The notes under the pieces: model-generated
What the model saw: the letters and a program-made list of their open reading frames with translations, nothing else
Told to the model about the DNA's origin: nothing
Databases searched by the model: none
Source of the DNA: a virus
Taxonomy: Duplodnaviria; Heunggongvirae; Uroviricota; Caudoviricetes
Virus record (IMG/VR): IMGVR_UViG_2778261418_000005
Span: 1-17,126 of that record
Length of the DNA: 17,126 nucleotides
Reading direction: 5' to 3' (one strand)
Position numbers and translations under genes: made by a program
In this document: positions 7,080-16,507 of the stretch, piece after piece
Layout: the number at the start of each line of letters is the position of its first letter
Position numbering within the stretch: the stretch's first letter is position 1

Positions 7080-7557
7080 TTTAGTTCTTGCGGCATTACG
7101 TAAGCTCGGTGTGGCATCAAATGCCACGTTAACCGATGTCGAACCGCAGTCTATGGAAGACGGCGTCAACGACCTTGAAATGATGATGGCTGAATGGCTT
7201 GGCGGTGATGCGTCACCAGGTATCAACGTTGGCTACATTTTCGCTGATGCAGATGTCGCTCCAGATCCGGGCGATGAGCACGGTTTATCAAATAACGCTA
7301 TCAATGCCGTCATTTTCAACCTTGCCTGCCGCATTGCTCCGGATTATGCGCTGGAAGCGTCTACAAAACTTATAACCACTGCCAGATACGGGAAAGAGCG
7401 ACTCGTCAAACTGTCTGCAATGGACAGAGCAAAAGCCGCTAAATGTAAGTCCGGTTATCCAAACCGTATGCCTGTTGGTAGCGGTAATCAGTTGGCGAAG
7501 TGGAACGGTTGGAATTACTTCCAGCGAAAGGAACCTTGCGATAACGGGAGCGAATAA
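7057..7557 (+). CDS. P22 gp4 equivalent (portal-associated head completion / tail adaptor protein), 166 aa
   Basis: Start chosen at the ATG at 7057 ([21 protein letters not shown]...), which gives 166 aa and matches my memory of the P22 gp4 N-terminus and length; AAGG at 7044-7047, 9 nt upstream. The track ORF extends upstream to 6946 through the repeat. Confidence 0.8.
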
Positions 7558-8975
7558 TGCCGATTCAGCAACTTCCGCTCATGAAAGGCGTCGGCAAAGA
7601 CTTCCGAAACGCCGACTATATCGACTATCTGCCAGTGAATATGCTGGCTACACCCAAAGAAATACTCAACAGCAGCGGATATCTTCGCTCATTCCCGGGC
7701 ATTGCCAAACGCTCTGATGTGAACGGCGTATCTCGCGGCGTCGAGTACAACATGGCGCAGAGTGCTGTTTATCGCGTGTGCGGGGGCAAGTTGTATAAGG
7801 GCGAAAGCGAAGTCGGTGATGTTGCCGGAAGTGGTCGTGTATCAATGGCTCATGGTCGGACATCACAGGCGGTAGGCGTTAATGGTCAACTGGTCGAGTA
7901 TCGTTATGATGGCACGGTTAAAACCGTCTCAAACTGGCCTACAGACAGCGGATTCACGCAGTATGAGTTAGGCTCAGTACGCGACATTACGCGCTTACGT
8001 GGGCGTTATGCGTGGTCAAAAGACGGCACTGATTCATGGTTTATCACTGACCTTGAAGACGAATCGCATCCTGACCGATACAGCGCACAATATCGCGCAG
8101 AATCGCAGCCTGACGGCATCATCGGCATCGGCACATGGCGAGACTTCATTGTCTGCTTTGGTTCATCGACGATTGAGTATTTCTCCCTGACTGGTGCAAC
8201 CACCGTTGGTGCTGCTTTGTATGTCGCACAGCCATCACTGATGGTGCAAAAAGGCATCGCCGGGACTTACTGCAAAACGCCGTTTGCTGATTCGTATGCA
8301 TTTATCAGCAATCCGGCAACAGGTGCGCCGTCTGTGTATATCATCGGCTCCGGTCAGGTATCACCAATCGCCAGCGCGAGCATTGAGAAAATCCTCCGCT
8401 CCTACACTGCTGATGAACTGGCTGATGGTGTGATGGAATCGCTGCGATTTGATGCTCATGAGTTGCTGATTATCCACCTTCCGCGCCATGTTCTCGTGTA
8501 CGACGCATCTTCAAGCGCCAATGGTCCGCAATGGTGTGTACTGAAAACAGGCCTGTATGACGATGTGTACCGCGCTATCGACTTCATTTACGAAGGCAAC
8601 CAAATAACGTGCGGCGATAAGCTTGAATCGATGACAGGGAAATTGCAGTTCGATATCAGCAGCCAGTACGACAAGCAACAGGAACACCTGCTGTTTACTC
8701 CGTTGTTCAAAGCAGATAACGCCAGAGTTTTCGACCTTGAAGTTGAGTCGTCAACTGGCGTTGCGCAGTATGCTGACCGCCTGTTCCTCTCTGCAACCAC
8801 TGACGGCATAAATTATGGGCGTGAGCAGATGATTGAGCAGAATGAACCGTTCGTTTACGACAAACGCGTTTTGTGGAAACGAGTAGGGCGCATCAGGAAA
8901 AACATTGGCTTCAAATTGCGCGTTATCACGAAGTCACCTGTCACTCTGTCTGGCTGCCAGATAAGGATTGAGTAA
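7557..8975 (+). CDS. P22 gp10 equivalent (head completion / tail hub protein), 472 aa
   Basis: A 472-aa ORF, the length I recall for P22 gp10; translationally coupled to the upstream gene (TAATG at 7555-7559); position after the gp4 equivalent. Confidence 0.85.
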
Positions 8976-10983: not shown

Positions 10984-12333
10984 ATGGCTACGTGGCAACA
11001 GGGTATTAATTCTGGTGGTTTTCTGGCTGGCATCGGTACGCAAAATGAGAATGCGCCAAAGGCAAGCGACATTAACGCAACGCTTGGTCTGATCCGCGAA
11101 AACAATGAACTGGCTCGCTCAGGTGCAAATAACATTGGTCTGACCGCGTTACGTGGTCTGGCTGGAGTTGCTGATATTTACAATCAGGAACAGCAACAGA
11201 AAGCGATTAGTGCGTTCAATAAGGTTCACGCTGATGCATGGGCTTCTGGTGATCCATCGGGACTATTTAAGTTTGCCCAGGAAAATCCAGCGTTTGTTGC
11301 ACAGGCACAACAGGCGTTTTCCGGTCTTAATGATCAGCAACGCAACGATATGGGCGATTTAGCCATGAGGGCTAACGTCGCTCTTTCTCAGGGACCGGAA
11401 GCCTACAGTAAATTCATTACTGACAACAAGGACAGGTTAAATCGCGTGGGGGCGAATGCTGACTGGATGATTCAGACAGGTATCCAGAATCCAGAGCAGC
11501 TATCACACATGCTGACTACTATGTCTCTCGGTGCGCTTGGACCAGAAAAGGCGTTTGCTGTTCAGGATAAGATGGTTGGTCGCCAGCAGGAGCAGCAAAG
11601 AATTAACGAAACCATTCGCAATAATGACATGACGAATGCGAGGGCTATTAGGGGGCAGGATCTTTCCTATAAGGCTCAAATGGCAAGACTGAATCACGAC
11701 AAGTATGTGTTTAAGCAGTCACAGGCGGCCCTTGAAAGAGCAGGACAACCTCAGGATATGGATGTTTTGTCTCTTAACTCACAGATAGCAGCGACGGGAA
11801 TTGATCCGCTAACCGGTAAAGCTGCAACGTCAGCCAGAATGTCTCAGGCTAAGAGATGGCTTGATGGCAACAATAATTACAACAATGCGTTGATTACTGG
11901 TGAGCGAGGGATAGAGAAAATAGATTCTTTGCTTGGTAAGAAGGAGCTTGAAGGTATCGGTCGCTTCGAAGGAAGAAATATAGATGGCTTCACAAGTGCT
12001 GAAGGGCTTGCAAACCGTAATGCGATAGAAGAATTAAAGTCGGGTGCGTTTGTCCAGAACGTGCAGACTATGCGAGGTATGGGTAGCCTCTCCAATGCTG
12101 AAGGACAAAAACTGGAAAACCTTATCGCGAAACTCGATATAACACAGCCTGAAGAGGTCGTCAGAAAACAGTTATCTGAAATCCGATCGCAATATTCTGT
12201 ATTTCAAAAGGTTGCAGCAAGGGAGGCTGAATCAATGGGATATAGTTCATCAGGTTATGACACATATGTTAGTGAGCGAAAATCAGGAAGCGACAGCAAT
12301 AAGTCCGGTTTCTCGTCTTTATGGGGTGATTAA
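10984..12333 (+). CDS. Ejection (internal virion) protein, P22 gp20 equivalent, 449 aa
   Basis: A 449-aa ORF in the gp20 position, same strand, 10-nt gap after the gp7 equivalent. Confidence 0.8.
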
Positions 12334-14492
12334 TGGCTAAAGCATGGAAAGATGTTATCGCTTCTCCACAGTATCAGGCGTTAACTGAAGAACAGAAAGC
12401 ACAGGCTCAAGCGCAATATTTTGATGAGGTTGTTGCCCCTAAGGCTGGTGACAAATGGGCTGAAGCAAGAGATCAGTTTTATGCAGCATACCCTCCGCAT
12501 CAGCAGCAGAAAGAAGAACCATCATTGATGCAACAAGCTGGCGATTGGCTCACAGGTGGTCAAAGTGCAGGGCAAATTGCAGAACAGGCTGGTCGTGGTC
12601 TGGTAAACATACCATTTGACGTATTGCAGGGTGGCGCAAGTCTGATTAATGCAATCAGCCAGGGGCTTGGTGGCCCCAAGGTTTTGGATGATGTTTATCG
12701 CCCTGTCGATCGACCGACAGACCGTTGGGCGCAAGCCGGTGAAACATTTGGTGGGTATCTCCTGCCAATTGGCACAGCGGCAAAAGCTGCTGGAGCGACA
12801 GCAAAGCTCGCAGGAGACATCGGTTCCGCAGGAAACATGATTGCAGGTTCTCTTGCTGATGCTGCAAATCAGGAGGGTGATTTTGCACAAAATGCTGCCA
12901 TTAACGGTGGTATCAATTTTGGTGCTCAAGGCGTTCTTTCAGGTGTCGGGCGCGTTATTGCGCCAAGGGTTTCACAGGCTCTTGGTGGTGCAGCACTGAA
13001 TTCTGCTAATGATGTTTCCAGGATGGCAAAGTCAGGTGCTGGGCGTCAGTCAATTGCCAGTCAGGCCGCTAATGTGTCCGAAGATGTAGCAAAAGCGGCT
13101 GAGTCTGCTGGAATTGATATAAACGCATTAACACCAGGAATGCGATCTGGAAGTCGTGGAATTGCACAAGCCGAAGGCGCATTGGCATCAACACCAGGAA
13201 TTGTTCAGGACGCCCATCAGGCAGCATTTAACGAAATATCATCAAAGTTAAGTCGAAACCTTGATGAATTTGGGGCCGCATCTGGAACGGCATCAGAAAA
13301 AAGTGCGGCTATAAAACAAAGGATTCTTCAAAATCTTGATCAGATGAAGGATGCCGAGCGCGCGGCATGGGATGACGTGCGGTCAACAATGCCAAATCAA
13401 AAAGCAAGAATGCTAAATGGTAATGCCGTTATTCAGGCAGAGCGATCTGCCGGCATACCGCTTACTCCTGAAATGAAACAGTTTGTTCAGGCAAACAATC
13501 AAGGTGGAGTAACATTTGATGGCATGAAAGCATGGAGAGCGAAATTTGCTGATGCGGAGCAAAAATATAAGCGTAGCGGAGAGGCAAATGCGGCAAGGAG
13601 AGCAGGGGAAATACGCCGGGCAATTACTGATGATATGCGCACAATGGCGGAAAACGGCGGATTTCTTGATGACTGGCAAAAAGCTAATGATCTGTCTAAA
13701 GCGAGGTTATCAGCACAAGAGAGTGCAGAGTCTGTTTTCGGGCGTGATTTGGCAACAGATGCACTGATTACGAATGGAGTAAAATCCCTTCAATCATCGT
13801 CAGCTAAAGGTCTTAATGGTCCTGCTGGATTCCATTCTATGATCCGCGCTCTGCCAGAATCAGAGCGTGTTCCTGCTATATCATCAATGTTGAAGGATGC
13901 CATCTCGCATGGTGTACGTGGTGGCAAAGCTGATGCAGCAGGAATTAACCATATCGCAGAGATACTCACTCCACAAAATGTAAAAGCCATTAGCCGATAT
14001 TCCTCAGAGCTTGGAAGAATTGCTGATGCATATGGCACTCTTGCAAGAGCAGCAGTGAAACCTCAGCAGTATATTGAAAGAACAGGGAGAACTGCCAATG
14101 TACTACGCGATCTGGATGCCGGTTTATCCAACATCACATCAGCAGTGTTAAATGCAATTGCCAACTCAACATCAGGTGCCATTGTTGGTGGCGCTGGAGG
14201 GGGCATTGCAGGCGCTGCCGTGGGTGCTTTAGTTGGCGCTGGGTTAAAAGGCGCTGTATCTAAAATTGCCACCACACGTAGTGGTCGATATGCGATAGAG
14301 AAAGCTGTTCAGGAAGCCACCAAAGCAGTAAGAGCTGGCGGAAGTAAAGAAGCATTAGCGGCGGCGGAACGCAGATTTATGGCAAATAAAGCCGCCGTAA
14401 AAGCAATACGTGATGCAGTTGGAAACGAAGAGTTCAATCGCTTAGCGAGGGCTGGCATTGTAGCGTCGCTAAGCGGAATAGCACAGGAGTAA
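12333..14492 (+). CDS. Ejection (internal virion) protein, P22 gp16 equivalent, 719 aa
   Basis: A 719-aa ORF in the gp16 position; translationally coupled to the gp20 equivalent (TAATG at 12331-12335); glycine-zipper-like hydrophobic segment near the C-terminus ([27 protein letters not shown]). Confidence 0.8.
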
Positions 14493-14816
14493 TTAATCAT
14501 CCATGGATGGATTGAGCTTATCTCGTGTTGATGTGGCGATTTGCCCTACATTCCTAAGCCAAGATTTCAAATCCTTGATATTGTCATTGATTTCATGAAT
14601 ATCTTCTTTTTTTAGTCTGTTAATATTATTCTCAATAATTTCAATGGATTGCTCAATATCAGATATAGTGAATGATAGTTTGTTCTTCTCATCTTTTATT
14701 GAGTTTTTAAGTGCTTCGTTCTCAGTCTTGAGGTCAGATATCTTTTGTTTTAAAGATGCCAGTTGGTACTGAACCACAATGAGTGCGATAGCTATCACGA
14801 TAACTGTTGTATACAC
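14493..14816 (-). CDS. Hypothetical membrane-anchored coiled-coil protein, 107 aa (accessory/moron gene)
   Basis: GTG start at 14816 preceded by AAGGAGG with a 5-nt spacer; N-terminal hydrophobic helix (YTTVIVIAIALIVV) followed by a K/E/N/I-rich heptad-like segment; strongly AT-rich compared with the flanking structural genes; stop codon abuts the gp16-like stop (TAATTA at 14490-14495). Confidence 0.55.
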   Translation of the reverse strand: MYTTVIVIAIALIVVQYQLASLKQKISDLKTENEALKNSIKDEKNKLSFTISDIEQSIEIIENNINRLKKEDIHEINDNIKDLKSWLRNVGQIATSTRDKLNPSMDD

Positions 14817-14933
14817 ACCAACCTCCTTAGTTTTGAGCAGGATACCATGAAAAAAGTAAACATCTTTTGCCTACTTCACATTTGAATGGTTTGTCATTAG
14901 GATGTTTCCGGTTTTTTAAATATGGAAATTGAT

Positions 14934-15353
14934 ATGAAGAGGATTATTGGCGTCGTTGCTGGCGCTATGATGTTATCTGGGTGCGCAACTATTGTTGGTG
15001 ATGAAACGCAACTTGTGCAAGTGAACAGCAACCCTTCCGGTGCGAGCTTTAAGGTAAAAGATGAATCAGGCGTGATTGTTGCGCAAGGCAAGACTCCACA
15101 AGGAGTAACTCTTGCCAAGTCAGATGGTAGTTATTTTGGCAAAAAGAGCTACCAGATCACTATGGAAAAGGATGGGTACGAACCAGTTACCCTGCCAATC
15201 AAAGCCAATGCTAATGGTTGGTATATTGGTGGAAACCTTGTGTTTGGTGGGTTAATCGGTTGGCTTGCTGTTGATCCATTTAATGGTGGGATGTATACAT
15301 TGAAGCCAAAAGAGGCAAATGCATCTCTTATACCTTCTACGAAGCAAGATTAA
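14934..15353 (+). CDS. Putative lipoprotein with a PEGA-like domain and a glycine-rich C-terminal segment, 139 aa
   Basis: Signal peptide MKRIIGVVAGAMMLSGC with lipobox LSG-C; a following segment (NPSGASFKV...GKTP...KDGYEPV) resembles the PEGA domain pattern; C-terminal GWYIGGNLVFGGLIGWLAVDPFNGGMY. Start at 14934 preferred over the track's 14922. Confidence 0.7.
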   Translation: MKRIIGVVAGAMMLSGCATIVGDETQLVQVNSNPSGASFKVKDESGVIVAQGKTPQGVTLAKSDGSYFGKKSYQITMEKDGYEPVTLPIKANANGWYIGGNLVFGGLIGWLAVDPFNGGMYTLKPKEANASLIPSTKQD

Positions 15354-15358
15354 GAAAT

Positions 15359-15386
15359 GAAACCCACCGTCAGGTGGGTTTTTTAT
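15359..15386. terminator. Bidirectional intrinsic terminator between the convergent lipoprotein and peptidase genes
   Basis: AAACCCACC-GTCA-GGTGGGTTT hairpin with a T-run downstream on the + strand (TTTTTAT) and a T-rich run on the - strand (TTTCATTTCTT); lies between the stops at 15353 (+) and 15410 (-). Confidence 0.6.
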
Positions 15387-15409: not shown

Positions 15410-15946
15410 TCAAACAACCCACCAGTTTGCCTGATTGGATACCAGCCTTGCAGTTTTTATGGAATTAATTATGCCATGCTCAAGAGCCTTGTTAGCATCC
15501 AAAATGGTCGAGTCTGCTATCAGGGATGCCCACCTAATATGGGTTCCGATGTCGATATTGAACGCCTCAACGAAGCGATCAAGATCGTTATCGAGGCATT
15601 TCCCGTACTCTCTCAATCTGGCATGGTCGGCGGCTGGGGTGGCAAAGCCCCATAATAGAGGATGTAACAGGAATCTTGATAATGGGTTTGCGAAACGTTC
15701 TGAGCCAGCCAGGAAAACGATATTAGCTATGGATTCAACATTGCTTATGTTGTGAGTTCTAACGGTAACAGGGAGTGACTTAAGAAAGTTATACGCAGTA
15801 AAGCCAGCGGCAGTTTCCCCTCCCTGACTTGATATATGGATATTTAATTCAGTTGCGCCCTGAGATAATGCGGTGAGACAGTGGTTCTGAAGTTGCCCAA
15901 CAGTGGCAGTGTTAACGGGGCATAAGAAATGAATTGTGTGCAGCAT
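15410..15946 (-). CDS. Minimal ClpP-fold (peptidase S14-like) serine peptidase, 178 aa
   Basis: Collinear match to the ClpP core as I recall it: NIHISSQGGETAAGFTAYNFL against ClpP YINSPGGVITAGMSIYDTM; SIANIVFLAG against catalytic-Ser SMGAFLLTAG; LLHPL against MIHQP (His); a D-S-T segment near the ClpP Asp position; C-terminal HGIINSI against YGLVDSI. Start codon overlaps the stop of the upstream Mnt-like gene (TAATG). Confidence 0.7.
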   Translation of the reverse strand: MLHTIHFLCPVNTATVGQLQNHCLTALSQGATELNIHISSQGGETAAGFTAYNFLKSLPVTVRTHNISNVESIANIVFLAGSERFANPLSRFLLHPLLWGFATPAADHARLREYGKCLDNDLDRFVEAFNIDIGTHIRWASLIADSTILDANKALEHGIINSIKTARLVSNQANWWVV

Positions 15947-16182
15947 TATTTTTCATCCTTACCATACATGGTCTTTAGCGTCTCAAGCAGCGCCTCCCTG
16001 AATTTGTCAGCCTCTTTCTGAGCAAATTCATTGCTATTAAGCGATCTACCACAAACAGCATCTTCGATAATCTGTATTATTTCAGCATTCATGGAACGCT
16101 TGTTATGTTGCGCCCTAGCTTTAACCTTTGCCTTTAACTCTTTGGAAATTCTAATATTTATTTGCGGCTCTTCGCGTGACAT
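15946..16182 (-). CDS. mnt: Mnt-like ribbon-helix-helix repressor, 78 aa
   Basis: N-terminal RHH pattern (INIRISKELKAKVKARAQHNKRSMNAEIIQIIEDA) similar to my memory of P22 Mnt; divergent from the arc-ant genes as in P22 immI; GGAGG 4 nt upstream of the ATG. Confidence 0.82.
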   Translation of the reverse strand: MSREEPQINIRISKELKAKVKARAQHNKRSMNAEIIQIIEDAVCGRSLNSNEFAQKEADKFREALLETLKTMYGKDEK

Positions 16183-16253: not shown

Positions 16254-16270
16254 AATTGATTGGAGGTAAT

Positions 16271-16444
16271 ATGATAGTCAAGTCAGACGCACCAAAGTAC
16301 CCTTTGCGCATCCCATTAGAGGTTAAGTTAGCAATCGAGAAGTCAGCGAAAGAAAATGGTCGCTCAATAAATACCGAGATGGTAATGCGGTTGGTGGATA
16401 GTTTAAGGCGGGATAGTTCTAAAGGTAATCTAGCAAAAAGTTGA
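16271..16444 (+). CDS. arc: Arc-like ribbon-helix-helix repressor, 57 aa
   Basis: [38 protein letters not shown] aligns in length and pattern with my memory of P22 Arc (MKGMSKMPQFNLRWPREVLDLVRKVAEENGRSVNSEIY); GGAGG at 16262-16266; directly upstream of ant. Confidence 0.8.
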
Positions 16445-16507
16445 AGCCCCAACTGCGGGAACAGTCAGGGCTTCGGTTGTCAGTAAATCCGTGGAGAAAA
16501 ACCAACA
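16433..16507 (-). ncRNA. Candidate sar-like antisense small RNA covering the ant ribosome-binding site and start codon
   Basis: On the - strand: a TATACT -10 element (16513-16518) inside the ant 5' end, then about 70 nt downstream a hairpin (16443-16474) followed by a T-run (AACTTTTTGCTA). The size and placement parallel the roughly 69-nt sar RNA of P22. Promoter -35 is weak; ends are approximate. Confidence 0.4.
16443..16474 (-). terminator. Hairpin acting as a terminator on the - strand only (arc-ant intercistronic region)
   Basis: GAAGCCC...GGGCTTC stem with an inner ACTG/CAGT stem; followed by a T-run only in the - orientation, so rightward arc-ant transcription would read through. Confidence 0.5.

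What the first reader, a model, noticed from the sequence alone, without database searches (positions are those of the whole stretch)
14934..15353. Phage-encoded lipoprotein with a PEGA-like domain and a glycine-zipper-like C-terminus
Seen in sequence: a canonical lipoprotein signal (MKRIIGVVAGAMMLSGC), then a segment with a PEGA-like pattern (NPSGASFKV ... GKTP ... KDGYEPVTL) and a C-terminal GWYIGGNLVFGGLIGWLAVDPFNGGMY segment; own terminator downstream. Established knowledge: prophage lipoproteins such as Cor, Llp and Bor mediate receptor blocking or serum resistance as lysogenic-conversion functions. Inference: a candidate envelope-modifying or superinfection-exclusion lipoprotein.
Basis: partly seen in the sequence, partly recalled or inferred. 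Interest (0 to 1): 0.6.

Follow-up and report, generated by a model that had tools for sequence, protein, structure and literature searches.

The report
Prophage moron encoding uncharacterised envelope lipoprotein
A P22-like prophage carries a small self-contained gene for an outer-membrane-type lipoprotein from a large, unstudied bacterial family that temperate phages have picked up repeatedly, probably to alter the cell envelope of the lysogen; what it does has never been tested.

Summary
Window 14934-15353 (+) encodes a 139-aa protein with a lipobox (LSG|C17), a divergent PEGA/transthyretin-like beta-sandwich (aa 25-93), a near-invariant glycine-rich hydrophobic segment (aa 94-120) and its own terminator.

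It is epsilon34 gp15 (97.8% identical; PHROG 6823, function unknown). It lies in the variable "ant moron" of a P22-like prophage, between ejection gene 16 and the immI genes.

New here:
- It belongs to a very large uncharacterised lipoprotein family (5521 clusters at 50% identity).
- Most members are stand-alone chromosomal genes with no conserved partner.
- Temperate phages carry it in at least four different slots. Two are the slots of P22 sieA and HK97 gp15.
- The cassette keeps its promoter-like hexamers and terminator among 8 upstream and 8 downstream flank types.
- It is under strong purifying selection (pN/pS 0.045).
- The hydrophobic segment scores as interfacial rather than as a stop-transfer helix. 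One homologue is fused to an OmpA-like barrel, which points to the outer membrane.

It is not related to Cor, Llp, Bor, TraT or the Pfam glycine-zipper families. Superinfection exclusion is the favoured function, but an envelope-fitness role is almost as likely, and neither has been tested.

The parts
14875..14903 (+). Promoter-like site: TTCACA, 17-nt spacer, TAGGAT
   Evidence: Consensus scan, 9 of 12 matches. The scan alone is not significant: 2 sites were found against 5.6 expected. Both hexamers (CTTCAC ... TA[G/A]GAT) stay conserved in epsilon34, Gally and 720R6 although the surrounding upstream sequence differs.
14924..14928 (+). Weak Shine-Dalgarno-like GGAAA, 5 nt before the ATG
   Evidence: Read directly from the sequence; conserved in all four phage copies.
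14934..15353 (+). Lipoprotein gene (139 aa; equals epsilon34 gp15; PHROG 6823)
   Evidence: pN/pS is 0.045 over 48 nucleotide alleles.
14934..14984 (+). Signal peptide plus lipobox L-S-G-C (Cys17 codon at 14982-14984); Ala at +2
   Evidence: Lipobox rule. Cys is present in 136 of 137 members; C-A-[ST]-I is nearly invariant.
15006..15212 (+). Divergent PEGA / transthyretin-like beta-sandwich (aa 25-93)
15213..15293 (+). Family signature: glycine-rich hydrophobic segment N94-M120 (NGWYIGGNLVFGGLIGWLAVDPFNGGM), predicted as two short helices (95-104, 106-112)
   Evidence: Near-invariant W96, Y97, G100, N101, G105, G106, G109, D114, P115, G118 and M120. AlphaFold2 pLDDT is 61-76 here. Hydrophobicity: Kyte-Doolittle mean 1.28, Hessa sum +4.1 kcal/mol, Wimley-White interfacial sum -7.3 kcal/mol, hydrophobic moment 0.09.
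15294..15326 (+). Conserved C-terminal strands (aa 121-131) predicted to rejoin the beta-sandwich
   Evidence: AlphaFold2 pLDDT of about 96 for E121-124 and E127-131.
15359..15386 (.). Intrinsic terminator hairpin (GAAACCCACC-GUCA-GGUGGGUUUU) with a T-run; shared with the convergent ClpP-like gene
   Evidence: -16.2 kcal/mol, z -4.1. The scan reports it on the minus strand. It is annotated as a Rho-independent terminator in epsilon34.

Best explanation
**Shown.**
- This is a moron, an add-on gene with its own transcription signals. It has promoter-like hexamers, a weak ribosome-binding site, a 139-aa ORF and a strong terminator.
- It lies in the variable region of a P22-like prophage, between ejection gene 16 and the immI genes (mnt-like, arc, sar, ant).
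- The product has a lipoprotein signal peptide.
- It belongs to a very large uncharacterised bacterial family with a fixed architecture: Cys-Ala-[Ser/Thr]-Ile, then a PEGA-type beta-sandwich, then the motif NGWYxxGNxxFGGLIGWLxVDPxTGAMW and a return strand.
- Temperate phages carry this family in at least four different positions.

**Inferred: location and topology.**
- After lipidation at Cys17, with Ala at +2, the Lol pathway should send the protein to the outer membrane.
- There the sandwich would be held flat against the periplasmic leaflet by two anchors. One is the N-terminal acyl chains, on a tether of only about 7 residues. The other is the short glycine-rich helical hairpin, which would dip into one leaflet rather than cross the membrane.
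- The hairpin may sit next to small OmpA-type beta-barrels.

**Inferred, least certain: function.** When expressed from the prophage, this membrane-embedded module changes the outer membrane or an outer-membrane protein. As a result, incoming phages fail at outer-membrane penetration or DNA delivery. That would be superinfection exclusion acting on a conserved host component, not on a variable phage protein.
For: **Identity and context.**
- The window is a P22-like late operon. The gene-16 homologue matches PHROG 770, DNA transfer protein. sar RNA is present at 95.6 bits.
- The gene is 97.8-98.6% identical to epsilon34 gp15 and to genes in phages Gally and 720R6.
- It occurs in 126 of 5426 complete E. 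coli genomes, always on the chromosome, and on 111 IMG/VR viral contigs.

**Moron character.**
- The terminator folds at -16.2 kcal/mol.
- The hexamers, ribosome-binding site and terminator are conserved while the outer flanks differ. There are 8 upstream and 8 downstream flank types.
- The Proteus copy is laid out as terminator, promoter-like site, gene, terminator.
- P22 has sieA and ORF59a at this place instead.

**Repeated capture by phages.**
[quoted passage not shown] This is the slot of the HK97 gp15 exclusion moron (PMC3594210).
- Between gpI and gpJ in Pseudescherichia.
- Between N and cro in Arsenophonus.

**The gene is functional.** pN/pS is 0.045.

**Topology.**
- Lipobox rule and family conservation.
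- The segment 95-113 has an unfavourable translocon-insertion score (+4.1) and a strongly favourable interfacial score (-7.3).
- AlphaFold2 places strands 121-131 back on the sandwich at pLDDT about 96.
- Homologue P0143 carries an OmpA_membrane/OMP_b-brl barrel C-terminal to the module, and such a barrel has to be exported. Other homologues carry long Pro/Ala-rich C-terminal tails.
- In Pasteurellaceae an OMP_b-brl gene lies 10-17 bp upstream on the same strand.

**Precedent.**
- SieA blocks P22-type DNA delivery (PMC10883804).
- Unrelated lipoproteins encoded in the structural gene cluster of mEpimmI phages exclude phages in plating assays (PMC11893012).
- TraT is a lipoprotein with a beta-sandwich and helical outer-membrane anchor. 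Mobile elements co-opted it from a chromosomal family (PMC11733297).
Against: - No experiment exists for any member of the family. All sources call it hypothetical or "PEGA domain-containing" (PMC2629481).
- It matches nothing in PADLOC, and it has no homology to Cor, Llp, Bor or TraT.
- Most species carry it as a stand-alone chromosomal gene among housekeeping neighbours:
  - Erwiniaceae: amino-acid permease, MmuM, the lipoprotein gene, a GNAT acetyltransferase, Tsx.
  - Photorhabdus: a GNAT acetyltransferase, the lipoprotein gene, MurJ.
  - Enterobacter: next to the patD locus.
- The phage copy is 78-81% identical to a chromosomal copy and keeps every invariant residue. It therefore probably does what the chromosomal genes do, which need not be anti-phage.
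- The phage slots it occupies also hold non-exclusion morons, so position is weak evidence.
- The promoter call is not statistically significant on its own.
- Outer-membrane sorting, the hairpin topology and any OmpA contact are predictions. The hairpin has only moderate model confidence (pLDDT 61-76). P0143 is a single metagenomic sequence.
Confidence: 0.4

Rival explanations
1. Host-fitness conversion gene. The lipoprotein does for the lysogen what its chromosomal relatives do in Erwiniaceae, Photorhabdus, Halomonas and others. That would be a general outer-membrane function, such as stabilising or organising the periplasmic leaflet or small beta-barrel proteins, or tolerance to serum, bile, antimicrobial peptides or osmotic stress. 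It would have no direct effect on phage entry. The phage benefits because the lysogen is fitter, as with lambda Bor.
For: - The family is mainly chromosomal and stand-alone, and it is syntenic across Erwiniaceae.
- Phage and chromosomal copies intermix in one Enterobacterales clade and share all invariant residues.
- Selection is strongly purifying, with no hypervariable patch.
- Only 126 and 5 of 5426 complete E. coli genomes match the two phage-type gene sequences, and every match listed in the protein look-ups lay in a prophage. The prophage would therefore supply a function the host lacks.
- There is no PADLOC hit.
Against: - No phenotype is known for any member.
- A general housekeeping role sits oddly with the gene's absence from most E. 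coli and Salmonella.
- Repeated placement next to DNA-delivery genes and in known exclusion slots is at least as well explained by exclusion.
- The two roles are not exclusive. TraT has been credited with both surface exclusion and serum resistance.
Confidence: 0.35
2. TraT-like surface-exposed oligomer. The protein assembles into a ring. The conserved Asn101 and the glycine-rich helices pack into an alpha-helical membrane anchor, and the beta-sandwich faces outward. It would then sterically hinder phage tails or complement, rather than acting from the periplasmic side.
For: - The building blocks match TraT: a lipidated N-terminus, a beta-sandwich, and hydrophobic helices that AlphaFold2 models poorly. 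The same was true for TraT alpha3/alpha4 (PMC11733297).
- The hydrophobic segment is not amphipathic (hydrophobic moment 0.09, mean hydrophobicity 0.73), so it is buried in lipid or protein.
- A polar Asn and glycines are invariant within it.
- Both families were co-opted from a chromosomal family by mobile elements.
Against: - The helices are only 10 and 7 residues long, too short to span the outer membrane.
- Strands 121-131 return to the sandwich.
- The OmpA-barrel fusion puts the module on the periplasmic side, because barrel termini are periplasmic (established knowledge).
- The oligomeric state could not be predicted with the tools available.
Confidence: 0.1
3. Phage lysis or virion function, for example an o-spanin-type lipoprotein or an envelope-acting late protein needed for release or assembly.
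For: - It is a lipoprotein in a phage genome.
- It is transcribed in the same direction as the late operon, so late read-through transcription is possible.
Against: - Related prophages have a complete lysis cassette elsewhere: holin, endolysin and a lysis protein.
- The gene is absent from P22, HK620, CUS-3 and most P22-like phages, so it cannot be essential.
- It lies outside the lysis module, is much larger than Rz1-type o-spanins, and most of its relatives are non-phage chromosomal genes.
Confidence: 0.03

Closest known systems
TraT (IncF plasmid surface-exclusion lipoprotein)
   Same: - An outer-membrane lipoprotein built from a beta-sandwich plus hydrophobic alpha-helical membrane segments that AlphaFold2 models poorly.
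- A widespread chromosomal family taken up independently by mobile elements for an exclusion role (PMC11733297, PMC12658005).
   Different: - TraT is about twice as large. Three transmembrane helices per protomer form a decameric outer-membrane barrel with the sandwich outside the cell.
- Here the helices are too short to span a membrane, and the module is inferred to be periplasmic.
Cor (phi80/N15/HK022/mEp phages) and Llp (T5): receptor-blocking lipoproteins
   Same: Small lipoproteins encoded by phages or prophages and expressed to protect the cell. They act on a conserved host outer-membrane protein (FhuA) rather than on phage parts, which is the mode proposed here.
   Different: - Unrelated in sequence. 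NCBIfam Cor scores 12.6 bits against a cut-off of 31, and PHROG 1119 matches only aa 1-20, the signal peptide.
- No PEGA domain and no hydrophobic hairpin.
- The target here is unknown.
P22 SieA and HK97 gp15: exclusion proteins in the same genomic slots
   Same: - Same positions: gene 16 | mnt in P22-like phages, and tail assembly chaperone | tape measure gene in lambdoid siphoviruses.
- Independently transcribed morons.
- HK97 gp15 also derives from a host gene family, YebO (PMC3594210).
   Different: - Both are inner-membrane proteins with transmembrane helices and no lipobox (PMC10883804, PMC3594210).
- Neither is homologous to this protein.
- SieA is targeted to ejection proteins gp16 and gp20.
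Pfam PEGA domain (PF08308) / transthyretin-like beta-sandwich proteins, such as the S-layer protein SlaB
   Same: The same fold class, with recognisable PEGA sequence features.
   Different: - This protein scores below the Pfam gathering threshold.
- The family adds a lipobox, a conserved K-S-D-G-S-Y-F-G insert and the C-terminal hydrophobic motif, none of which is part of PEGA.
Lambda Bor / Iss (prophage serum-resistance lipoprotein)
   Same: A prophage moron encoding an outer-membrane lipoprotein that benefits the lysogen. This is the model for the rival explanation.
   Different: No sequence similarity and no Pfam hit; a different size and fold.
SlyB/Pcp-type glycine-zipper lipoproteins
   Same: A lipoprotein that combines a glycine-rich hydrophobic helical hairpin with a small beta domain (from my own knowledge of SlyB, not tested here).
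   Different: - No match to any glycine-zipper Pfam family at E up to 10.
- The domain order is reversed and the hairpin is much shorter.
- Only one conserved GxxxG.

Membership tests
Bacterial lipoprotein (Sec/SPII substrate) | Positively charged n-region, hydrophobic h-region and a lipobox [LVI][ASTVI][GAS]C with Cys at position 15-35 | tested here: met
   MKRIIGVVAGAMMLSG|C17 passes a PS51257-style regular expression, and 116 of 137 relatives pass the same strict rule. Cys is present in 136 of 137. Dedicated predictors (SignalP, LipoP) were not available.
Bacterial lipoprotein (Sec/SPII substrate) | Actual lipid modification and cleavage by Lsp | not testable with these tools
   Needs a globomycin or palmitate-labelling experiment.
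Pfam PEGA (PF08308) | Score at or above the curated gathering threshold (20.8 bits) | tested here: not met
   17.6 bits, E 0.0037, aa 28-93.
Pfam PEGA (PF08308) | Homologues in the same family reach PEGA, and the fold is the transthyretin-like beta-sandwich | tested here: met
   [not shown]
Glycine-zipper families (Gly-zipper_Omp, Gly-zipper_OmpA, Gly-zipper_YMGG, Rick_17kDa_Anti) | Profile match, or a contiguous (G/A/S)xxxGxxxG motif | tested here: not met
   No such Pfam family appears at E up to 10. The conserved glycines are G95, G100, G105, G106 and G109, and only G105xxxG109 is a conserved GxxxG.
Cor exclusion lipoprotein (NCBIfam NF047972 / PHROG 1119) | Profile score above the cut-off over the mature protein | tested here: not met
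   12.6 bits against a cut-off of 31, over aa 1-30 only. PHROG 1119 matches aa 1-20 only.
PHROG 6823 (phage protein family, function unknown) | Full-length profile match | tested here: met
   E 7.9e-86, aa 1-139 against profile positions 1-139 of 139.
Moron (independently transcribed add-on gene in a phage operon) | Own terminator | tested here: met
   Hairpin of -16.2 kcal/mol, z -4.1, annotated in epsilon34. Analogous terminators follow the E. coli lambdoid copy (read from the sequence) and the Proteus copy.
Moron (independently transcribed add-on gene in a phage operon) | Own promoter active in the lysogen | tested here: inconclusive
   TTCACA-17-TAGGAT scores 9 of 12 and is not above the shuffle expectation, but the hexamers are conserved across divergent flanks. 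Activity needs transcript data.
Moron (independently transcribed add-on gene in a phage operon) | Present or absent at the same site among otherwise syntenic phages | tested here: met
   Absent from P22 and found in only 4 of 50,697 phage records. The cassette has 8 upstream and 8 downstream flank types.
Superinfection-exclusion protein | Expression reduces plating or DNA entry of superinfecting phage | not testable with these tools
   No experimental data for any family member were found (PMC2629481).
NCBIfam LEPBI_I2678 family (NF047662) | Score above the cut-off (240 bits) | tested here: not met
   22.9 bits over aa 68-133 only. 14 of 60 relatives give weak hits. The shared part is the C-terminal motif.

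The most novel reading that the evidence does not exclude
The family is a new class of exclusion lipoprotein shared by podoviruses and siphoviruses. A PEGA sandwich would be pinned to the periplasmic leaflet of the outer membrane by its lipid anchor and by a hairpin that resembles a viral fusion peptide. It would dock on OmpA-type barrels and stop the trans-envelope DNA conduit (ejection proteins or tape measure) from forming. On this reading, the many chromosomal copies are domesticated or ancestral versions of a general defence at phage entry.
Probability: 0.2. Interest if true: 0.65.

Novelty: new variant of a known kind. Interest (0 to 1): 0.4.

Why it matters
Prophage morons that change the cell envelope decide which phages, plasmids and host defences a lysogen can withstand. 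Few of their protein families have a known mechanism.

This one stands out for several reasons:
- It is abundant in sequence databases, with thousands of clusters.
- It is present in pathogenic E. coli lineages (for example O111:H8 and the adherent-invasive strain NRG 857C) and in Salmonella phage epsilon34.
- Phages carry it in at least four different genomic positions.
- It has a distinct architecture.

A positive plating assay would add a new exclusion family with an unusual way of binding the membrane. A negative one would point to an unrecognised outer-membrane housekeeping function. Either way the result is incremental, not a change in concepts.

Tried and rejected
- **Sequence search of solved structures:** only chance-level hits to the RNA polymerase beta' subunit (E 0.27).
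- **Foldseek against PDB:** nothing below E 1e-3. The afdb50 library was not available.
- **PADLOC defence models:** no hit.
- **Conserved operon partner as a functional clue:** clustering the neighbours in 75 species-representative loci gave only lineage-specific synteny and no partner shared across genera. A heuristic for outer-membrane-protein-like neighbours found 11 of 288 genes within two positions against 0 of 773 further away. These come from only three independent lineages, so I treat this as weak.
- **Domain fusions:** 9 of 10 long homologues carry only low-complexity or unknown extensions. One carries an OmpA-like barrel.
- **Names of distant members:** all are "hypothetical" or "PEGA domain-containing".
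- **Literature:** no functional study was found. The epsilon34 genome paper lists gene 15 as unknown.
- **Single-pass transmembrane anchor (inner-membrane retention):** considered and rejected. The reasons are the unfavourable insertion score, the return strand and the exported C-terminal extensions.
- **In-plane amphipathic helix:** considered and rejected, because the hydrophobic moment is 0.09.
- **Spanin:** considered and rejected (see the rival explanations).
- **SieA in phage Gally:** the upstream 171-aa gene shows no similarity to P22 SieA by BLASTP. Whether the lipoprotein co-occurs with SieA types B or C was not resolved.
- **Blocked look-ups:** The diverse alignment A2 was too variable for a locus scan.
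Full report
**1. What is in the sequence**

- Window 14934-15353 (+) is an intact ORF of 139 aa. An in-frame ATG 12 nt upstream would add MEID, but homologues begin MKK/MKR, so 14934 is the probable start.
- The N-terminus MKRIIGVVAGAMMLSG|C satisfies a PROSITE-type lipobox rule.
- Twenty-nine nt upstream of the ATG lies a sigma-70-like pair of hexamers, TTCACA-17-TAGGAT (14875-14903). Alone it is no better than chance.
- Six nt after the stop codon a GC-rich hairpin with a T-run folds at -16.2 kcal/mol (z -4.1; no shuffle of 200 folds as well).

**2. Genomic setting**

- The window is the late operon of a P22-like (Lederbergvirus) prophage. It runs from terminase through portal, scaffold and coat to the ejection proteins. 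This follows from ORF order, synteny with annotated relatives and a PHROG 770 "DNA transfer protein" match for the 719-aa gene-16 homologue.
- Downstream of gene 16 the order is:
  - an hkcB-like membrane and coiled-coil gene (14493-14816, -);
  - the lipoprotein gene (+);
  - a ClpP-family gene (15410-15946, -), which overlaps an Arc/Mnt-like gene (15946-16182, -);
  - arc (16256-16444, +);
  - sar RNA (16439-16506, -; Rfam 95.6 bits).
- This is the "ant moron"/immI region, which the epsilon34 genome paper describes as being in rapid flux (PMC2629481).
- The gene is epsilon34 gene 15 (97.8% identical at protein level). It is also present in phages Gally and vB_EcoP-720R6. Only 4 of 50,697 phage records carry it.
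- P22 itself has sieA and ORF59a at this place.
- Near-identical copies occur in 126 of 5426 complete E. coli genomes, all chromosomal and nearly all single-copy. They also occur on 111 IMG/VR viral contigs.

**3. It behaves as a mobile, selected cassette**

- I aligned the window with epsilon34, Gally and 720R6. The -35 and -10 hexamers (CTTCAC ... TA[G/A]GAT), a GGAAA ribosome-binding site, the ORF and the terminator are all conserved. The sequence outside them differs.
- Across 72 full-length viral copies there are 8 upstream and 8 downstream flank types.
- Among 48 nucleotide alleles, pS is 0.160 and pN is 0.0071, a ratio of 0.045. Substitutions are scattered and conservative.
- The gene is therefore functional and under purifying selection, not diversifying selection.

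**4. The protein**

- *Profile matches.* Pfam PEGA matches aa 28-93 below threshold (17.6 against 20.8 bits). PHROG 6823, of unknown function, matches end to end (E 8e-86). Matches to Cor are limited to the signal peptide. PADLOC gives nothing.
- *Family size.* An exhaustive profile search finds 5521 clusters at 50% identity with E up to 1e-3, and 2065 with E up to 1e-10. Among distant members, 20 of 60 reach PEGA, with a best E of 5e-9.
- *Structure prediction.* With a 137-sequence alignment the AlphaFold2 mean pLDDT is 85.7 and pTM is 0.75:
  - a beta-sandwich at aa 25-93 (pLDDT about 98);
  - two short helices at 95-104 and 106-112 (pLDDT 61-76);
  - strands at 121-131 that return to the sandwich (pLDDT about 96).
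- *Conservation.* It is highest at two places. One is directly after the lipidated Cys (C-A-[ST]-I: 136, 134, 134 and 129 of 137). The other is the motif N-G-W-Y-x-x-G-N-x-x-F-G-G-L-I-G-W-L-x-V-D-P-x-T/N-G-A/G-M-W/Y, where G109, D114, P115 and M120 are invariant.
- *Glycine zipper.* No glycine-zipper profile matches, and only one GxxxG is conserved. "Glycine-zipper-like" is therefore a loose description and not family membership.

**5. Topology reasoning (inference)**

- Ala at +2 predicts Lol-dependent sorting to the outer membrane in Enterobacterales (established rule; not tested here).
- Segment 95-113 is uniformly hydrophobic (hydrophobic moment 0.09). It is rich in Gly and contains Asn.
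- Its simple translocon-scale sum is +4.1 kcal/mol, which makes it a poor stop-transfer helix. Its interfacial partitioning sum is -7.3 kcal/mol.
- The chain returns to the sandwich after the segment.
- One homologue (P0143) continues into an OmpA_membrane/OMP_b-brl barrel. Several others continue into long Pro/Ala-rich tails. Such extensions must be exported, so the segment does not act as a membrane-spanning anchor there.
- In three Pasteurellaceae genomes an OMP_b-brl gene ends 10-17 bp before the lipoprotein gene on the same strand.
- Together these favour a sandwich pressed against the periplasmic leaflet of the outer membrane. It would be held by the acyl chains, on a tether of about 7 residues, and by a short re-entrant helical hairpin. 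It may lie beside small beta-barrels.
- The resemblance to the glycine-rich helical-hairpin fusion peptide of influenza haemagglutinin comes from my own knowledge. It is an analogy only.

**6. Where else the family lives**

- *Phage contexts.* Besides the P22-like slot, there are three:
  - between the tail assembly chaperone genes and the tape measure gene in E. coli and Proteus siphovirus prophages. This is exactly where HK97 carries its gp15 exclusion moron (PMC3594210);
  - between gpI and gpJ in Pseudescherichia and relatives;
  - between N and cro in an Arsenophonus prophage.
- *Chromosomal contexts.*
  - Enterobacter: next to the patD locus.
  - Kosakonia: near pmrD.
  - Erwiniaceae: a syntenic locus of amino-acid permease, MmuM, the lipoprotein gene, a GNAT acetyltransferase and Tsx.
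  - Photorhabdus: a GNAT acetyltransferase, the lipoprotein gene, MurJ.
  - Lonsdalea: lipid A acyltransferase, an EAL-domain gene, the lipoprotein gene.
- No partner gene is shared across genera.
- A neighbour-joining tree without bootstrap support places the phage copies in one Enterobacterales clade together with some chromosomal copies. The Erwiniaceae orthologues form a separate clade.
- Most non-enterobacterial members, such as those of Halomonas, Acinetobacter, Zoogloea and Vogesella, are about 170 aa and carry an extra C-terminal element.
- The family is rare on plasmids.

**7. Function**

Nothing is known experimentally for any member.

- *For superinfection exclusion:*
  - the gene recurs in slots that hold exclusion genes in model phages: SieA, HK97 gp15, and the N-proximal immunity region;
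  - it lies next to DNA-delivery genes;
  - exclusion lipoproteins have precedent, including unrelated ones in the structural cluster of mEpimmI phages (PMC11893012);
  - SieA shows that this locus is used to block P22-type DNA delivery (PMC10883804).
- *Against it:*
  - the phage copies are barely diverged from chromosomal genes that look like housekeeping genes;
  - there is no sign of an arms race;
  - there is no hit in a defence-system library.
- If it does exclude phages, it most likely acts on a conserved host envelope component, as Cor and Llp act on FhuA, and not on variable phage proteins.
- I put exclusion at about 0.4, a pure host-fitness envelope role at about 0.35, a TraT-like surface oligomer at about 0.1, and a lysis or virion role at about 0.03.
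- TraT is the best conceptual analogue. It is a lipoprotein with a beta-sandwich and helical outer-membrane anchor, and mobile elements recruited it from a chromosomal family (PMC11733297, PMC12658005). There is no detectable homology between the two.

**8. Verdict**

- The gene has been known as a hypothetical protein since the epsilon34 genome paper.
- New here are the size and architecture of the family, its repeated capture into phage moron slots, the cassette structure and selection, and a testable topology and mechanism.
- It is a new variant of a familiar kind, the prophage-encoded envelope lipoprotein, and of moderate interest.

Noticed in passing
window 15410-16182 (-): A 178-aa ClpP-family gene (Pfam CLP_protease, E 4.5e-12) shares a start/stop overlap with a 78-aa Arc/Mnt-like repressor gene, in the place where P22 has plain mnt. 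The same gene pair sits beside Arc plus Ant in E. coli lambdoid prophages (L004, L005, L008) and in strain UTME-3. This looks like an immI variant that includes a protease. Its role is unknown.
   Followed up: partly
window 14493-14816 (-): An hkcB-like 107-aa protein with an N-terminal hydrophobic helix and a coiled coil (PHROG 5962, unknown function). It starts right after the stop of gene 16, in the position and orientation of P22 sieA. It is a second candidate membrane-acting moron gene.
   Followed up: partly
window 16439-16506 (-): Full-length sar antisense RNA (Rfam RF00262, 95.6 bits) between arc and the start of ant, so the immI antirepressor control circuit appears intact.
   Followed up: yes
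L004/L005/L007, about 12261-13424: [quoted passage not shown] They carry the ClpP-like/Arc/Ant module after gpL. That is several envelope and immunity morons within one tail operon.
   Followed up: no
protein P0143; loci L138, L139, L169 at about 7400-8480: One metagenomic family member is fused to an OmpA-like 8-stranded barrel (OmpA_membrane E 2.3e-15). Three Pasteurellaceae genomes have an OMP_b-brl gene 10-17 bp upstream of the lipoprotein gene on the same strand. This may be a functional link to small outer-membrane barrels.
   Followed up: partly
window 12333-14492 (+): The 719-aa gene-16-type ejection protein also matches PHROG families annotated "lytic tail fiber protein" (aa 19-329, E 2e-61) and "transglycosylase" (aa 63-247, E 6e-24). 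It has no Pfam domain.
   Followed up: no
L128-L133 (Lonsdalea), the gene just downstream of the lipoprotein gene: A second, unrelated 135-aa lipoprotein gene (MKRVFFLFFALILSGC...) follows the family member in all Lonsdalea loci. It has no Pfam hit.
   Followed up: no
L016 (E. coli UTME-3) 17559-19862 compared with window 12333-14816: UTME-3 carries a lipoprotein gene 100% identical to the window's. Its gene-16 homologue (636 aa) and the adjacent minus-strand gene (122 aa) differ from those in the window, which shows very recent mosaic exchange around the cassette.
   Followed up: partly
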